DNA of 4,544 nt from a virus (taxonomy: Duplodnaviria > Heunggongvirae > Uroviricota > Caudoviricetes): IMG/VR virus record IMGVR_UViG_3300029229_000043, positions 1 through 4,544 of that record. One strand, 5' to 3'. Made by a program: the position numbers and the translations under genes. Shown here one piece after another: positions 1,946 through 4,544 of the stretch. Positions within the stretch are counted from its first letter, which is position 1; every line of letters starts with the position of its first letter. The notes under the pieces were generated by a model. It did no database searches. It saw only the letters and a program-made list of their open reading frames with translations, and was not told the origin of the DNA.

Positions 1946-1955
1946 NNNNNNNNNN
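1946..1955. other. assembly gap (10 N)
   Basis: Run of N characters. The reading frame before the gap (phase 1) and after it (phase 0) do not match for a literal 10-nt gap, so the true gap length is probably not 10. Confidence 0.95.
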
Positions 1956-2246: not shown

Positions 2247-2520
2247 CCTGCAACTAGCCGTTAAAGGTGAATACTTCGATGCCATCATTCGCGGAGAGAA
2301 AACGGAAGAGTATCGCCTGTGTAATGACTACTGGAATAAGCGAATTATGTTCAGGGATTATGACCGACTGATTATCACAAAGGGATATCCGAAGCGCGAC
2401 GACTCCAGTCGTAGAATTGACGTCCCGTATGACGGATATGAAATCAAGACAATCACACATCCCCACTTCGGCGATAAACCGGTAAAGGTATACGCGATAA
2501 AGGTAAATATTGATGGCTAA
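2239..2520 (+). CDS. ASCH domain protein (PUA-like fold, 93 aa)
   Basis: GTG 2239 with AGGAGG (2227-2232) 6 nt upstream; overlaps the DUF551 stop by 8 nt. Contains RGEKTEEYR (nt 2290-2316), matching the ASCH signature GxKxxExR. The upstream 43 codons of ORF 2110..2520 are out-of-frame overlap with the DUF551 coding frame. Confidence 0.65.
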   Translation: MANLQLAVKGEYFDAIIRGEKTEEYRLCNDYWNKRIMFRDYDRLIITKGYPKRDDSSRRIDVPYDGYEIKTITHPHFGDKPVKVYAIKVNIDG

Positions 2521-2549
2521 ATCAGCAGCAGAGCGCAAAGCCGCTCAGA

Positions 2550-2569
2550 NNNNNNNNNNNNNNNNNNNN
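2550..2569. other. assembly gap (20 N)
   Basis: Run of N characters. The flanking coding frames do not match for a literal 20-nt gap. Confidence 0.95.
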
Positions 2570-2579
2570 GCTGGAGATT

Positions 2580-2840
2580 GTGCTTGATGCTCAGGAAATT
2601 GAAATGCTGGAGCGGAACTGCGCCGCCCGGCGCCCTGGTCGAGATCCCTATGAAATGGCCGAGTACATCGCGCTGCTGATCCGCCAGGATGATGCCCGGG
2701 TGCGCGGGCGTATAAAATCGATCAGCAGAAAACGTTGCGGTAAGTGCGGCGAGAGAGTTCCAGTTAATTCATGCCCGTGTAATGGTGACTCGCAATGCTG
2801 GGTGACCAAAGGCTGGCATGAAACGAAATTAATAGTGTGA
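2580..2840 (+). CDS. small Cys-cluster protein, putative zinc-binding; start uncertain
   Basis: The frame is open from the gap edge (2570) to TGA 2838-2840. Candidate starts are GTG 2580 (GGAG only 3 nt upstream) and ATG 2604 (AGGAA 2593-2597, 6 nt spacing); the gene may instead start at ATG 2513 on the other side of the gap. A basic stretch RVRGRIKSISRKR precedes C-x2-C-x8-C-x-C-x5-C (nt 2736-2798). Confidence 0.55.
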   Translation: MLDAQEIEMLERNCAARRPGRDPYEMAEYIALLIRQDDARVRGRIKSISRKRCGKCGERVPVNSCPCNGDSQCWVTKGWHETKLIV

Positions 2841-2857
2841 CATGTCACGAAGGTGTT

Positions 2858-3070
2858 ATGCCAAAAATACGCTACGACCTTGAAGATATGAGAGATAACT
2901 CAGCTAATTTTCCGAAAGAGGTTAAATTTCTCATGCATAAGTATGGTTGCGCCAGGAGGGATATAGTTATCGACAGTCAGCACCCTTGCGGCGAGGATGT
3001 AATTTTCATTCGCGGTAAATGGAAAGGGTATCTTGACGAGAGTTTTTACGATGAATTTGATGGACTTTGA
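2858..3070 (+). CDS. hypothetical protein (70 aa)
   Basis: ATG 2858 with AAGG (2848-2851) upstream. The alternative GTG 2837 overlaps the upstream stop (GTGA). Stop TGA 3068-3070 is followed 6 nt later by a hairpin. No motif recognised. Confidence 0.5.
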   Translation: MPKIRYDLEDMRDNSANFPKEVKFLMHKYGCARRDIVIDSQHPCGEDVIFIRGKWKGYLDESFYDEFDGL

Positions 3071-3075
3071 ATACT

Positions 3076-3101
3076 GCCGCCAACTATGGCGGCTTTATTT
3101 T
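3076..3101 (+). terminator. candidate rho-independent terminator
   Basis: GCCGCCA (3076-3082) pairs perfectly with TGGCGGC (3087-3093) around a 4-nt loop ACTA, giving a 7-bp stem with 6 GC pairs, followed by TTTATTTT (3094-3101). It starts 6 nt after the stop of the upstream gene. Confidence 0.55.
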
Positions 3102-3105
3102 GCAT

Positions 3106-3137
3106 GGTACTATTACCACAACGGTAACTATTACCAC
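3106..3137 (+). repeat. tandem direct repeat GGTA(A)CTATTACCAC x2 immediately upstream of terS
   Basis: Copy 1 is GGTACTATTACCAC (3106-3119) and copy 2 is GGTAACTATTACCAC (3123-3137). The 10-bp core CTATTACCAC is identical, with an 18-bp period. It lies between the hairpin and the terS start. Confidence 0.6.
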
Positions 3138-3144
3138 GGTGGTT

Positions 3145-3741
3145 ATGATGCCTGCTGAACCTAAAACCTATAAACGCAAATCAACGCAATTTAAGCCACT
3201 AACAGCAATGCAGGAGGCTTATTGCCAGTCATACATCAAAACGCCTGAAAATCAGACTCAGGCTGCGATTAACGCAGGATTCTCCCCAAATACAGCGGCA
3301 GTTAAAGCCAGTGTCATGATGCGCGATGAACGCATTCAGAAACGGATTGCCGAGTTGATGGAGGAGCGCAACAAACGAATGCGCGTCAGTGCTGATTACG
3401 TTCTCATGCGCCTGGTGGAGATCGACCAGATGGACGTGATCGACATCCTCAACGACGATGGGAGCCTTAAGCCAATCCGCGAGTGGCCGAAAATCTGGCG
3501 CACTACGCTTAGCGGCTTTGATCTGTCATCGACCATCATGAACATGAACGAGGATTCGATAGAGACAATCCTCAAAAAAATTAAATGGCCTGACAAGGTG
3601 AAGAACCTCGAACTGATTGGTAAGCACGTCGACGTCAACGCATTCAAAGAACGCCTGGATGTTAATGTGAATGTGACAATTGCTGATCGCATAGCAGCAG
3701 CCAGGAAGCGACTCAAAGAACGTCAGGATGGTAATCAGTGA
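3145..3741 (+). CDS. terS: terminase small subunit (Terminase_2-like)
   Basis: ATG 3145 and ATG 3148 are both in frame; GGTGG (3138-3142) gives better spacing for 3148. The translation has an N-terminal HTH-like segment LTAMQEAYCQSYIKTPENQTQAAINAGFSPNTAA and a C-terminal ...KNLELIGKHVDVNAF, typical of small terminase subunits of this family. Stop TGA 3739-3741 overlaps the next start. The TTG 3067 extension in the ORF track reads through the terminator and repeat and is rejected. Confidence 0.8.
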   Translation: MMPAEPKTYKRKSTQFKPLTAMQEAYCQSYIKTPENQTQAAINAGFSPNTAAVKASVMMRDERIQKRIAELMEERNKRMRVSADYVLMRLVEIDQMDVIDILNDDGSLKPIREWPKIWRTTLSGFDLSSTIMNMNEDSIETILKKIKWPDKVKNLELIGKHVDVNAFKERLDVNVNVTIADRIAAARKRLKERQDGNQ

Positions 3742-4544
3742 CAGATACAGCGTTATCTCCTGAAGAGCAGTTAATCGAGGATATTGCAGGGTTCACTCAC
3801 GATCCGCTTGGCTATGCCCTCTATGCGTTCCCGTGGGGGGAAGAGGGGACTGAACTGGCACATGCTACCGGCCCACGTCAGTGGCAGGCTGATGCGTTCC
3901 GAGAGATACGTGATCACCTGCAGAATCCAGAGACGCGCTATCAGCCGCTTATGTTGGCACGCGCTTCTGGTCACGGTATTGGTAAATCCGCATTCATCTC
4001 AATGCTGATCAACTGGGGCATGTCCACTTGCGAGGATTGTAAGGTCGTGGTGACCGCCAACACCGACAACCAGCTACGAACGAAGACCTGGCCGGAAATT
4101 ATCAAGTGGTCGAACCTTGCTATCACGAAAGACTGGTTTACCTGTACCGCTACCGCGATGTACAGCAATGACCCTGGGCACGACAAGCGGTGGCGGGCTG
4201 ACGCAATACCCTGGTCTGAGCACAACACTGAGGCATTCGCCGGACTACACAACGAGCGCAAACGCATCATCGTGGTATTCGATGAAGCGTCGAACATTGC
4301 GGATCTGGTGTGGGAAGTTGCTGAGGGTGCGCTTACGGACGAAGACACTGAGATTATCTGGGTGGCGTTCGGAAACCCTACACGTAACACCGGGCGTTTT
4401 CGCGAATGTTTCCGCAAATATAAACACCGCTGGAAAACTGCGCAGATTGACAGCCGGACGGTGGAAGGCACTAACAAACAGCAGTTGCAGAAATGGGTTG
4501 ATGACTACGGGGAAGACAGCGACTTCGTTAAAATCCGTGTGCGC
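3738..4544 (+). CDS. terL: terminase large subunit, N-terminal ATPase domain (partial, continues past window end)
   Basis: GTG 3738 overlaps the terS stop (GTGA); the frame is open for 269 codons to the window edge. Walker A LMLARASGHGIGKS (nt 3948-3989) and Walker B with catalytic Glu IIVVFDEAS (nt 4266-4292). Position directly after terS. Absent from the ORF track only because no stop occurs in the window. Confidence 0.85.
   Translation, partial: MTDTALSPEEQLIEDIAGFTHDPLGYALYAFPWGEEGTELAHATGPRQWQADAFREIRDHLQNPETRYQPLMLARASGHGIGKSAFISMLINWGMSTCEDCKVVVTANTDNQLRTKTWPEIIKWSNLAITKDWFTCTATAMYSNDPGHDKRWRADAIPWSEHNTEAFAGLHNERKRIIVVFDEASNIADLVWEVAEGALTDEDTEIIWVAFGNPTRNTGRFRECFRKYKHRWKTAQIDSRTVEGTNKQQLQKWVDDYGEDSDFVKIRVR

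What the first reader, a model, noticed from the sequence alone, without database searches (positions are those of the whole stretch)
3071..3147. Terminator hairpin plus tandem 10-bp core repeat directly upstream of terS
A strong terminator-like hairpin separates the accessory genes from terS, implying that the packaging genes form a separate transcription unit. Between hairpin and start codon sit two copies of CTATTACCAC with 18-bp spacing. Candidate roles are binding sites for the terS HTH (a cosB- or pac-like recognition element, by analogy with the lambda Nu1 R sites) or an activator operator for a late promoter. No convincing sigma70 -35/-10 pair was found, which fits activator dependence but proves nothing.
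Basis: partly seen in the sequence, partly recalled or inferred. Interest (0 to 1): 0.5.

Follow-up and report, generated by a model that had tools for sequence, protein, structure and literature searches.

The report
Terminator plus twin repressor operators before terS
The hairpin is an ordinary transcription terminator, and the "tandem repeat" is the left halves of two adjacent palindromic binding sites, most likely for the prophage repressor, sitting on a small promoter in front of the DNA-packaging genes; relatives of this phage already carry both annotations.

Summary
A GC-rich hairpin (3076-3093) with a T tract (3094-3101) follows the last accessory gene. ACTATTACCAC occurs twice, at 3109-3119 and 3127-3137, 18 bp apart.

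The window is an epsilon15/phiV10-like (Uetakevirus) prophage. Each repeat copy is the left arm of a 17-bp palindrome: O1 (3112-3128, ATTACCacaacGGTAAC) and O2 (3130-3146, ATTACCacggtGGTTAT). Both match ATTACC-N5-GGTAAT with one mismatch.

In the near-identical complete prophage this motif occurs 13 times against 0.1 expected. All 13 sites are intergenic, and some flank a repressor gene homologous to SPC32H Rep (PDB 5D50). The epsilon15 GenBank record annotates the orthologous O1 as a repressor-binding site and the hairpin as a terminator.

Across about ten genera the arms are invariant and the spacers vary freely. A TGnTAnTAT extended -10 element (3105-3113) abuts O1. O2 covers the ribosome-binding site and start codon.

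Best reading: the terminator ends the early-right operon, and a repressor-controlled promoter drives terS-terL. A pac-like TerS site or an activator operator is not supported, because the motif is dispersed and lies too close to the start codon. Repressor binding and the promoter are inferred, not shown. Ordinary and already annotated; low interest.

The parts
2514..2840 (+). Context: gene for a small CxxC/CxC protein, the homologue of phiV10 p55 and epsilon15 gp49 ('transcriptional regulator'). Part of it is masked by N (2550-2569).
   Evidence: The full-length copy in L009 matches phrog_536, transcriptional regulator, E 1e-54. Gene order matches phiV10 and epsilon15.
2837..3070 (+). Last accessory ORF (77 aa from GTG 2837; RefSeq aa), function unknown. 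Its TGA stop is at 3068-3070. The ORF is absent from phiV10, which keeps only its last ~20 nt.
   Evidence: ORF list. phrog_1541, unknown function, E 3e-39. Homology with phiV10 resumes at window 3050.
3076..3101 (+). Intrinsic (rho-independent) terminator: 7-bp stem GCCGCCA/TGGCGGC, loop ACTA, T tract TTTATTTT (3094-3101).
   Evidence: z = -4.8. Conserved in most relatives. Annotated as a terminator in epsilon15 (39646-39672) and phiV10.
3105..3113 (+). Extended -10-like promoter element TGgTACTAT: TG at 3105-3106 and hexamer TACTAT at 3108-3113. No recognisable -35. The last two bases are the first two of O1.
   Evidence: TG, TA and the final T are invariant (2.0 bits), and position 4 is nearly so (1.7 bits), in 23 unique upstream sequences. 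This includes relatives whose upstream module lacks the terminator. In 104 close loci the element varies only at the 'n' of TGn (3107) and at hexamer position 3 (3110). Promoter activity is inferred, not shown.
3109..3119 (+). Direct repeat copy 1 (ACTATTACCAC): 3 nt of the -10 hexamer, the O1 left arm and 2 nt of the O1 spacer.
3112..3128 (.). Operator O1, ATTACC-acaac-GGTAAC. One mismatch to ATTACC-N5-GGTAAT.
   Evidence: The orthologous site is annotated 'protein_bind, repressor' in epsilon15, NC_004775 positions 12-27. Arms score 1.6-2.0 bits and spacer 0.2-1.6 bits in 23 unique sequences. No arm polymorphism in 104 close loci.
3127..3137 (+). Direct repeat copy 2 (ACTATTACCAC): the last 2 nt of the O1 right arm, the 1-nt linker, the O2 left arm and 2 nt of the O2 spacer.
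   Evidence: Its 3' part (ACCAC) is not conserved among relatives.
3130..3146 (.). Operator O2, ATTACC-acggt-GGTTAT. One mismatch. It overlaps the Shine-Dalgarno sequence and ends 2 nt before ATG 3148.
   Evidence: The 6-5-6 geometry is kept while the O1-O2 linker varies from 1 to 3 nt in relatives. O2 is degenerate (4 mismatches) in the Klebsiella clade. It is weaker and less conserved than O1.
3138..3142 (+). Shine-Dalgarno sequence GGTGG for terS, inside O2.
   Evidence: Read from the sequence. GGTG is conserved in alignment A1. It lies 5 nt before ATG 3148.
3148..3741 (+). terS (small terminase, 197 aa), starting at the conserved ATG 3148.
   Evidence: Pfam Terminase_2, E 1e-29. phrog_51. 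SF6 small terminase 3ZQP, E 6.5e-7. ATG 3148 is invariant in the alignment. Relatives have in-frame stops upstream of it.
3738..4544 (+). 5' part of terL (large terminase). It overlaps the terS stop and runs off the window.
   Evidence: Annotated terL in phiV10 and epsilon15 at the orthologous place.

Best explanation
Positions 3071-3147 are the junction between the early-right (replication and accessory) operon and the packaging genes of an epsilon15/phiV10-like temperate podovirus prophage. The junction holds three elements.

1. An intrinsic terminator (3076-3101) that ends early-right transcription.
2. A sigma70 extended -10 promoter element, TGgTACTAT (3105-3113), with no -35.
3. Two adjacent 17-bp palindromic operators, O1 (3112-3128) and O2 (3130-3146), of the family-wide type ATTACC-N5-GGTAAT. 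These are most likely bound by the prophage's SPC32H/epsilon15-type repressor Rep.

Proposed mechanism: Rep on O1 covers the end of the -10 element and the expected start point (about 3120). Rep on O2 covers the early transcribed region, the ribosome-binding site and the start codon. Together they keep terS-terL silent in the lysogen. When Rep is inactivated, the promoter, and any read-through of the terminator, expresses the terminase genes.

Shown here: the sequence elements, their conservation pattern, the genome-wide distribution of the motif, and the presence of a Rep homologue in the near-identical prophage.

Inferred: that Rep is the protein that binds, that TGnTACTAT is an active promoter, and the occlusion mechanism.
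For: - Identity of the element. O1 and O2 each match ATTACC-N5-GGTAAT with one mismatch.
- Motif in epsilon15. It has 7 perfect copies, and the GenBank record labels all of them repressor-binding. Three lie beside the repressor gene, and one is the orthologue of O1 at positions 12-27.
- Motif in the complete prophage. The E. coli MS 196-1 prophage is 99.7% identical to the window. It has 13 sites with at most one mismatch against 0.1 expected. All 13 are intergenic although only 10.6% of the prophage is. They lie on both sides of the rep gene and in front of the DUF1064 gene, terS, the portal operon, the tailspike gene and moron genes.
- Repressor. That rep gene product matches SPC32H Rep, PDB 5D50, at E 1.7e-41. 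A Rep homologue and at least 3 sites co-occur in 105 fetched loci. The one distant terS locus without Rep (Novosphingobium) has no sites.
- Conservation fits a protein-bound palindrome. In 23 unique upstream sequences from about ten genera, O1 arms carry 1.6-2.0 bits and the spacer 0.2-1.6 bits. O2 keeps its 6-5-6 spacing while the O1-O2 linker changes length.
- Microevolution. In 104 close loci every polymorphism seen in two or more loci lies in a spacer, the linker, the 'n' of TGn or hexamer position 3.
- Promoter. TGnTAnTAT is invariant at its key positions and stays attached to O1 in relatives whose upstream module has no terminator. The same geometry, a -10-like hexamer ending in the operator's first two bases, recurs at the proximal operator before the DUF1064 gene (TTGATT-N17-TTTAAT; my reading of the sequences printed).
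- Terminator., plus the annotations.
- The region is non-coding. Several relatives have in-frame stops within 1-13 codons upstream of the conserved ATG.
Against: - No binding data. The primary papers on epsilon15 and SPC32H were not in the held library, so I could not check whether the 'repressor' label in the epsilon15 record rests on experiment or prediction.
- All relatives use the same half-site, although their Rep proteins are only 41-100% identical. A co-variation test between repressor and operator was therefore impossible. A Cro-like protein or another regulator could share or own these sites.
- The promoter call rests on a 9-nt element with no -35. The hexamer matches TATAAT at only 4 of 6 positions, and the standard scan found no promoter.
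- O2 is weak or lost in the Klebsiella clade, so a two-operator mechanism is not universal.
- Three loci with about 8-10 kb of upstream sequence (L049, L066, L107) keep O1 and O2 but show no Rep homologue and no other sites upstream. L092 also lacks a Rep hit but does carry two further sites upstream. They share the window's terS 5' sequence, which suggests recent mosaics (my inference). They still show that the sites can exist without a nearby rep.
- The window itself does not contain the rep gene.
Confidence: 0.72

Rival explanations
1. The repeats are a TerS recognition element (pac or cosB-like). TerS oligomers would bind the two CTATTACCAC copies to start headful packaging, as SPP1/SF6 G1P binds the repeated boxes of pacL just upstream of gene 1.
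For: TerS here belongs to the Terminase_2 family and matches the SF6 small terminase structure 3ZQP. From memory, the pac site of SPP1/SF6 lies partly upstream of the terS gene. The location next to terS is typical for pac sites. The pac site of epsilon15-like phages is not documented in any paper I could reach.
Against: The repeated unit is a half-site of a palindrome present 13 times in the prophage and 7 times in epsilon15, flanking rep and other operons. It is therefore not unique to the packaging region. The 3' half of the second repeat is not conserved, and O2 is lost in the Klebsiella clade although TerS is retained. The spacing of the two copies changes by 1-2 bp among relatives. What is conserved is inverted-repeat symmetry, which fits a dimeric HTH repressor.
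Confidence: 0.06
2. The repeats are the operator for a phage-encoded activator of a late promoter that drives terS-terL. One candidate activator is the CxxC regulator encoded at 2514-2840.
For: There is no -35 element, and a regulator gene (phrog_536) sits just upstream. Promoters without a -35 are often activator-dependent.
Against: Geometry. O2 overlaps the Shine-Dalgarno sequence and ends 2 nt before the start codon. O1 ends 20 nt before it. An activator site centred at -41 or further upstream would put the transcript start inside terS. The motif also flanks the repressor gene and early operons. A different palindrome, CCATATRTGGTT, lies about 9 nt upstream of -10-like sequences before the portal, tailspike and lysis operons. 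It is the better candidate for a late-activator site, and the pattern scan found no copy between the hairpin and terS.
Confidence: 0.06
3. The element acts as RNA. The O1 right arm and O2 left arm, together with CCAC and GUGG, form an mRNA hairpin (3115-3143) that hides the Shine-Dalgarno sequence and limits terS translation.
For: The minimum-free-energy fold of 3060-3150 includes this second hairpin, which pairs GGUGG with CCAC.
Against: Any two adjacent palindromic operators can form such a hairpin, so it is an expected by-product. The outer CCAC/GUGG pairing is not kept in relatives, for example epsilon15 and the L013 type. The same 17-bp motif occurs at sites where no such RNA context exists. 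No Rfam family matches.
Confidence: 0.05
4. The region is coding. terS would start at TTG 3067, as annotated in phiV10 and RefSeq, and the DNA repeat would merely encode a repeated Thr-Ile-Thr-Thr peptide.
For: The frame is open from TTG 3067 to ATG 3148 in the window, and database records annotate the long form.
Against: Relatives have in-frame stop codons 1-13 codons upstream of the conserved ATG, and indels of 1-2 nt in the O1-O2 linker. The Pfam match starts at residue 19 of the short form. The long form would be translated through a strong terminator hairpin. Tyrion and epsilon15 annotate the short form.
Confidence: 0.02

Closest known systems
Repressor-binding sites annotated in Salmonella phage epsilon15 (NC_004775: 12-27, 2931-2947, 19895-19911, 32479-32494, 32554-32570, 32616-32632, 35906-35922), with the epsilon15 gp38 / SPC32H Rep repressor (PDB 5D50)
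   Same: Same consensus, ATTACC-N5-GGTAAT. O1 is the positional orthologue of the epsilon15 site at 12-27, immediately upstream of terS. The same repressor family is encoded in the near-identical prophage.
   Different: Here O1 has one arm mismatch (GGTAAC). A second adjacent site, O2, which is not annotated in epsilon15 (29-45, two mismatches there), is a better match here (one mismatch). That is what creates the visible direct repeat. Binding has not been tested for this prophage.
Rho-independent terminators annotated at the right end of the epsilon15 (39646-39672) and phiV10 genome records
   Same: Same hairpin sequence, apart from A/G at the stem-loop junction. Same position between the last early-right gene and terS.
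   Different: In this prophage an extra 77-aa ORF lies between the gp49-like regulator gene and the terminator. Some relatives (module B) have no terminator at all.
Phage P1 C1 repressor with operators dispersed around the genome (from general knowledge)
   Same: One repressor motif placed in front of many separate operons, including late and morphogenesis functions, rather than only at an immunity region.
   Different: Unrelated repressor family and operator sequence. P1 operators are asymmetric, whereas these are palindromes. This is an analogy only.
SPP1/SF6 pacL boxes upstream of the small-terminase gene (from general knowledge)
   Same: Short repeated boxes just upstream of a Terminase_2-family terS gene.
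   Different: The boxes here are half-sites of a palindrome that recurs throughout the genome, so they are not specific to the packaging region. No end-mapping data exist.

Membership tests
epsilon15/SPC32H-type repressor operator (ATTACC-N5-GGTAAT) | 17-bp inverted repeat with 6-nt arms ATTACC / GGTAAT and a 5-nt spacer | tested here: met
   O1 (3112-3128) and O2 (3130-3146) each have 1 mismatch. Expected number of sites at that threshold in the window is 0.07.
epsilon15/SPC32H-type repressor operator (ATTACC-N5-GGTAAT) | Several copies in the same phage genome, including sites flanking the repressor gene | tested here: met
   Tested in the 99.7%-identical MS 196-1 prophage, not in the window itself. 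It has 13 sites with at most 1 mismatch against 0.1 expected, all intergenic, at 10296, 10358 and 11070 around rep (10431-11015).
epsilon15/SPC32H-type repressor operator (ATTACC-N5-GGTAAT) | A cognate Rep-family repressor is encoded by the phage | tested here: met
   L009 10431-11015 matches PDB 5D50 (SPC32H Rep) at E 1.7e-41 over the full length. Rep homologues are present in 105 related loci. The rep gene lies outside the 4.5-kb window.
epsilon15/SPC32H-type repressor operator (ATTACC-N5-GGTAAT) | Arms under selection and spacer free across relatives | tested here: met
   Information content is 1.6-2.0 bits in O1 arms and 0.2-1.6 bits in the spacer. Recurrent polymorphisms in 104 close loci avoid the arms.
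epsilon15/SPC32H-type repressor operator (ATTACC-N5-GGTAAT) | Physical binding by Rep and repression of the adjacent promoter | not testable with these tools
   Needs EMSA or footprinting and reporter assays.
Intrinsic (rho-independent) terminator | GC-rich stem-loop immediately followed by a U tract, downstream of a stop codon | tested here: met
   7-bp stem with 6 GC pairs, 4-nt loop and TTTATTTT, 6 nt after the TGA. -16.2 kcal/mol, z = -4.8.
Intrinsic (rho-independent) terminator | Transcripts actually end at the U tract | not testable with these tools
   Needs 3'-end mapping or RNA-seq.
Extended -10 sigma70 promoter | TG at -15/-14 and a -10 hexamer with T-12, A-11 and T-7 | tested here: met
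   TGgTACTAT at 3105-3113. TG, TA and the final T are invariant in 23 unique relatives. The hexamer matches TATAAT at only 4 of 6 positions, and there is no -35.
Extended -10 sigma70 promoter | A mapped transcription start 6-8 nt downstream | not testable with these tools
   Needs 5' RACE or dRNA-seq after induction.
pac / cosB-type terminase recognition site | The sequence element is unique, or nearly so, to the packaging-initiation region of the genome | tested here: not met
   The same motif occurs 13 times in the prophage, 9 times in phiV10 (at most 1 mismatch) and 7 times perfectly in epsilon15.
pac / cosB-type terminase recognition site | Conserved together with the cognate TerS | tested here: inconclusive
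   O1 is present upstream of terS in all the Enterobacterales terS relatives examined. The second repeat copy (O2) is degenerate in the Klebsiella clade, and its 3' half varies elsewhere.
pac / cosB-type terminase recognition site | Virion DNA ends or the packaging series start map to the site, and TerS binds it | not testable with these tools
   No end-mapping data were found for this phage group.
Activator-dependent late promoter operator | The binding site lies upstream of or overlapping the -35 position of the regulated promoter | tested here: not met
   O1 ends 20 nt and O2 ends 2 nt before the start codon, and O2 overlaps the Shine-Dalgarno sequence. That leaves no room for a promoter downstream of the sites.

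The most novel reading that the evidence does not exclude
The most novel reading not excluded is this. A single Rep tetramer bridges the adjacent O1 and O2, using the two DNA-binding dimer pairs described for SPC32H Rep. It would shut off terminase expression at both transcription and translation initiation. This would be one node of a genome-wide network of about 13 dispersed operators, some in conserved pairs 62 bp apart, through which the repressor silences every operon of the prophage directly instead of through a cascade. A further stretch would be that repressor occupancy next to terS also gates packaging initiation.
Probability: 0.12. Interest if true: 0.4.

Novelty: already known. Interest (0 to 1): 0.14.

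Why it matters
It matters little beyond annotation. Three practical points come out of it.

- The repeat upstream of terS in phiV10/epsilon15-like prophages is not a packaging signal. It should not be used to set genome starts or to infer the packaging mode.
- The terS start annotated in phiV10 and RefSeq (TTG 3067, 224 aa) is probably wrong. It runs through a terminator and two operators. The conserved start is ATG 3148 (197 aa).
- Repressor-type operators in front of terS, the portal operon and the tailspike gene suggest that this phage group's repressor controls late genes directly. This could interest people who engineer these phages, for example phiV10 reporter phages. The sites were already annotated in epsilon15.

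Tried and rejected
- Standard two-hexamer promoter scan: nothing in the region. It cannot detect extended -10 promoters, so it is uninformative here.
- Rfam search of 2800-3400 at E up to 1: no match.
- Literature. The epsilon15 genome paper and the SPC32H Rep/Ant papers (J Virol 2013, PNAS 2016) are not in the held library. Full-text searches for the operator sequence returned only unrelated primer matches. The vB_EcoP_ZX5 paper shows that repressor over-expression abolishes holin and endolysin transcripts, but it maps no operators. No paper I could reach documents the pac site or DNA ends of this group.
- Co-variation test between repressor specificity and the terS-upstream site: not possible. 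Every relative found, with Rep 41-100% identical, uses the same ATTACC half-site.
- Search for a better pac candidate through suppressed synonymous variation along terS, using 42 unique sequences. There were only mild dips at codons 5-10 and 89-95 and nothing decisive.
- Alignment-based search of viral contigs to reach more distant or heteroimmune relatives: it returned only relatives with TerS at least 80% identical and the same motif.
- Coding explanation (long terS from TTG 3067): rejected because of in-frame stops and non-triplet indels in relatives.
- RNA-hairpin explanation: judged a by-product of two adjacent palindromes.
Full report
**What is in the sequence**

The upstream 77-aa ORF ends with TGA at 3068-3070. 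Six bases later comes a hairpin. Its stem is GCCGCCA (3076-3082) paired with TGGCGGC (3087-3093), its loop is ACTA, and TTTATTTT follows at 3094-3101. This is the best terminator-like site in the window. It folds at -16.2 kcal/mol, z = -4.8 against shuffles.

Downstream, ACTATTACCAC occurs exactly twice, at 3109-3119 and 3127-3137, 18 bp apart.

The terS gene (Pfam Terminase_2, E 1e-29) follows, with GGTGG at 3138-3142 as its ribosome-binding site.

**Where the window comes from**

The region from 3050 onward is 97-98.5% identical to Escherichia phages phiV10, TL-2011b and vB_EcoP_ZX5. It is 80-86% identical to Enterobacter phage Tyrion and Salmonella phages SPN1S and epsilon15, all in the genus Uetakevirus.

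The whole window is 99.7% identical to a prophage integrated next to guaA in E. coli MS 196-1. In these phages the genes upstream of terS (Ead/Ea22, DUF551, ASCH, and a small CxxC regulator homologous to phiV10 p55 and epsilon15 gp49) form the end of the early-right operon. The interval 3071-3147 is therefore the early/packaging junction of the circular phage map.

**What is conserved**

An alignment of seven phages shows that repeat copy 1 is invariant. The 3' half of copy 2 (ACCAC) is not. The invariant columns instead spell TTACC..AA.GGTAA, an inverted repeat that spans from copy 1 to the start of copy 2.

The epsilon15 GenBank record annotates exactly this site (12-27) as a repressor-binding site, together with six others. 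All seven read ATTACC-N5-GGTAAT.

Scanning with that pattern shows that the window holds two adjacent sites:
- O1, 3112-3128, ATTACCacaacGGTAAC
- O2, 3130-3146, ATTACCacggtGGTTAT

Each has one mismatch.

**Genome-wide distribution**

The MS 196-1 prophage has 13 sites with at most one mismatch, against 0.1 expected. All 13 lie in intergenic DNA, which makes up only 10.6% of the prophage. Their positions are:
- two downstream and one upstream of the repressor gene
- two before the DUF1064 gene
- O1 and O2 before terS
- one before the portal operon
- one before the tailspike gene
- four among moron genes

phiV10 has 9 such sites and epsilon15 has 11.

The repressor encoded between the first sites matches the crystallised SPC32H Rep (PDB 5D50) at E 1.7e-41 over its full length. 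A citing paper describes that protein as a tetramer that binds palindromic DNA sites through dimer pairs of N-terminal domains (PMC9638917). Among the fetched relatives, 105 loci hold both a Rep homologue and three or more sites. A distant terS locus from Novosphingobium has neither.

**Comparative test of the terS-upstream sites**

I took 23 unique upstream sequences from Escherichia, Salmonella, Citrobacter, Klebsiella, Enterobacter, Pseudocitrobacter, Erwinia, Scandinavium, Superficieibacter, Pseudescherichia and Buttiauxella.
- O1 arm positions carry 1.6-2.0 bits, and its spacer carries 0.2-1.6 bits.
- O2 keeps its 6-5-6 geometry while the O1-O2 linker varies from 1 to 3 nt. This means O2 moves as a unit.
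- O2 is degenerate (four mismatches) in the Klebsiella clade.
- Samsonia, with a very different upstream sequence, still has a perfect ATTACCgcgccGGTAAT before terS.

Among 104 close loci, every polymorphism present in two or more loci falls in one of four kinds of position: a spacer (3120, 3122, 3137), the linker (3129), the 'n' of TGn (3107), or hexamer position 3 (3110). No change falls in an O1 arm, and only two singletons fall in O2 arms. This is the signature of a protein-bound palindrome, not of a direct repeat.

**Promoter**

Immediately 5' of O1 lies TGgTACTAT (3105-3113). Its TG, TA and final T are invariant in all 23 sequences. It stays attached to O1 in relatives whose upstream module is different and has no terminator ('module B', for example L011, L013, L142-L148 and L151).

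It fits an extended -10 element, with the hexamer matching at 4 of 6 positions, including -12, -11 and -7. There is no -35. The expected start would be about 3120, inside O1.

The proximal operator before the DUF1064 gene has the same arrangement: TTGATT-N17-TTTAAT, with the last two hexamer bases being the first two of the operator (my reading of the sequences). Promoter activity is an inference.

**Why not TerS or pac**

TerS is of the SF6/SPP1 type, so the analogy with pacL boxes was reasonable. Three findings argue against it:
- The repeated unit is dispersed through the genome.
- Its conserved symmetry is inverted, not direct.
- The second copy is dispensable in one clade.

A scan of synonymous variation in terS did not reveal a clear alternative pac site. 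I found no end-mapping data. The pac site therefore remains unlocated, and a role for this interval is unlikely but not excluded.

**Why not an activator site**

O2 overlaps the ribosome-binding site and ends 2 nt before ATG 3148. O1 ends 20 nt before it. No promoter can lie downstream of these sites, so they sit where repressors act.

A different palindrome, CCATATRTGGTT, lies about 9 nt upstream of TAATA-like -10 sequences before the portal, tailspike and lysis operons. It is a better candidate for a late-activator site, and the pattern scan found no copy between the hairpin and terS.

**Why not coding**

RefSeq and phiV10 start terS at TTG 3067. Relatives, however, have in-frame stops 1-13 codons upstream of the conserved ATG, and 1-2 nt indels in the linker. 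The Pfam match begins at residue 19 of the short form.

**Verdict**

The hairpin is an ordinary, previously annotated terminator. The tandem repeat is the visible part of two adjacent repressor-type operators overlapping a small promoter and the terS ribosome-binding site.

The orthologous O1 and the hairpin are already annotated in epsilon15, and the hairpin in phiV10. The only small additions here are:
- recognition of O2
- the conserved extended -10 element
- the corrected terS start

Rep binding itself remains untested. I could not check whether the epsilon15 annotation rests on experiment, because the primary papers were not available.

Noticed in passing
window 3067-3147; L009 16479-17153; phiV10 41-715: RefSeq (PGAP) and the phiV10 record start terS at TTG 3067 (224 aa). 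That reading frame runs through the terminator hairpin and both operators. The conserved start is ATG 3148 (197 aa), and relatives have in-frame stops upstream of it.
   Followed up: yes
L009 10296/10358 and 13394/13456; epsilon15 32554/32616 and 35906/35968; also L011, L013, L014, L016, L018, L019: Operator pairs with a conserved start-to-start spacing of 62 bp (61 in one case), about six helical turns. They occur next to rep and before the DUF1064/RuvC gene in many genera. The proximal site overlaps the ribosome-binding site and lies 2-3 nt before the ATG. This suggests looping by a tetrameric repressor.
   Followed up: partly
L009 19791, 34113, 37543; phiV10 3311, 20924, 24742; epsilon15 2991, 24754: A second recurrent palindrome, (C)CATATRTGGTT (perfect AACCATATATGGTT in phiV10 at 24742). 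It lies about 9 nt upstream of TAATA/TATAAT-like hexamers before the portal, tailspike and lysis operons. The portal copy is conserved from E. coli to Buttiauxella. It is a candidate late-promoter or activator site. A pattern scan found no copy upstream of terS.
   Followed up: partly
window 2514-2840: Last conserved early-right gene. It encodes a roughly 112-aa protein with CxxC...CxC cysteines (phrog_536 'transcriptional regulator', the homologue of epsilon15 gp49 and phiV10 p55). It is a candidate late-gene regulator of unknown mechanism.
   Followed up: partly
window 2837-3070 compared with phiV10 1-43: The 77-aa ORF (phrog_1541, unknown function) is missing from phiV10. phiV10 retains only its last ~20 nt (GATGAATTTGATGG.TTTTGA) before the terminator. 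Several relatives with other upstream genes share this same C-terminal DEFDG(L/F)-stop segment, so a mosaic junction lies at about 3050.
   Followed up: partly
L011, L013, L142, L144-L148, L151 (100 nt upstream of terS): An alternative upstream module ('...CCAGTCATGTAACATC...') has no terminator hairpin but joins the same TGnTAGTAT-O1-O2 block. The terminator is therefore not an obligatory partner of the operator/promoter unit.
   Followed up: partly
window 3170-3189: AACGCAA occurs twice, 10 bp apart (ATAAACGCAA / ATCAACGCAA), in codons 8-14 of terS. The DNA is nearly invariant among seven phages, and synonymous variation is somewhat reduced there (0.5 against about 0.9 bits). It could be a DNA-level signal or just codon preference in a Lys/Arg-rich N-terminus.
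   Followed up: partly
window 1946-1955 and 2550-2569: Two runs of N (10 and 20 bases) interrupt the ORF that starts at 1714 (just upstream of the DUF551 gene) and the gp49-like regulator gene. The reading frames around them cannot be trusted from the window alone.
   Followed up: no
L009 15120-15647, 24603-28137, 37611-39351, 19333-19409: The near-identical MS 196-1 prophage is decayed. It has a split DUF551 gene, two IS3-family insertions (one in tail genes and one in a holin gene) and truncated structural genes. It also carries a tRNA-Arg gene between terL and the portal operon. The element studied here may therefore sit in a non-inducible prophage.
   Followed up: no
L049, L066, L107 (upstream 8-10 kb): Some viral contigs share the window's terS 5' sequence and keep O1 and O2, with at most one spacer base changed. 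They have no Rep homologue and no other ATTACC-N5-GGTAAT site in the 8-10 kb upstream. They are probably recent mosaics that join this late region to a different early region.
   Followed up: partly
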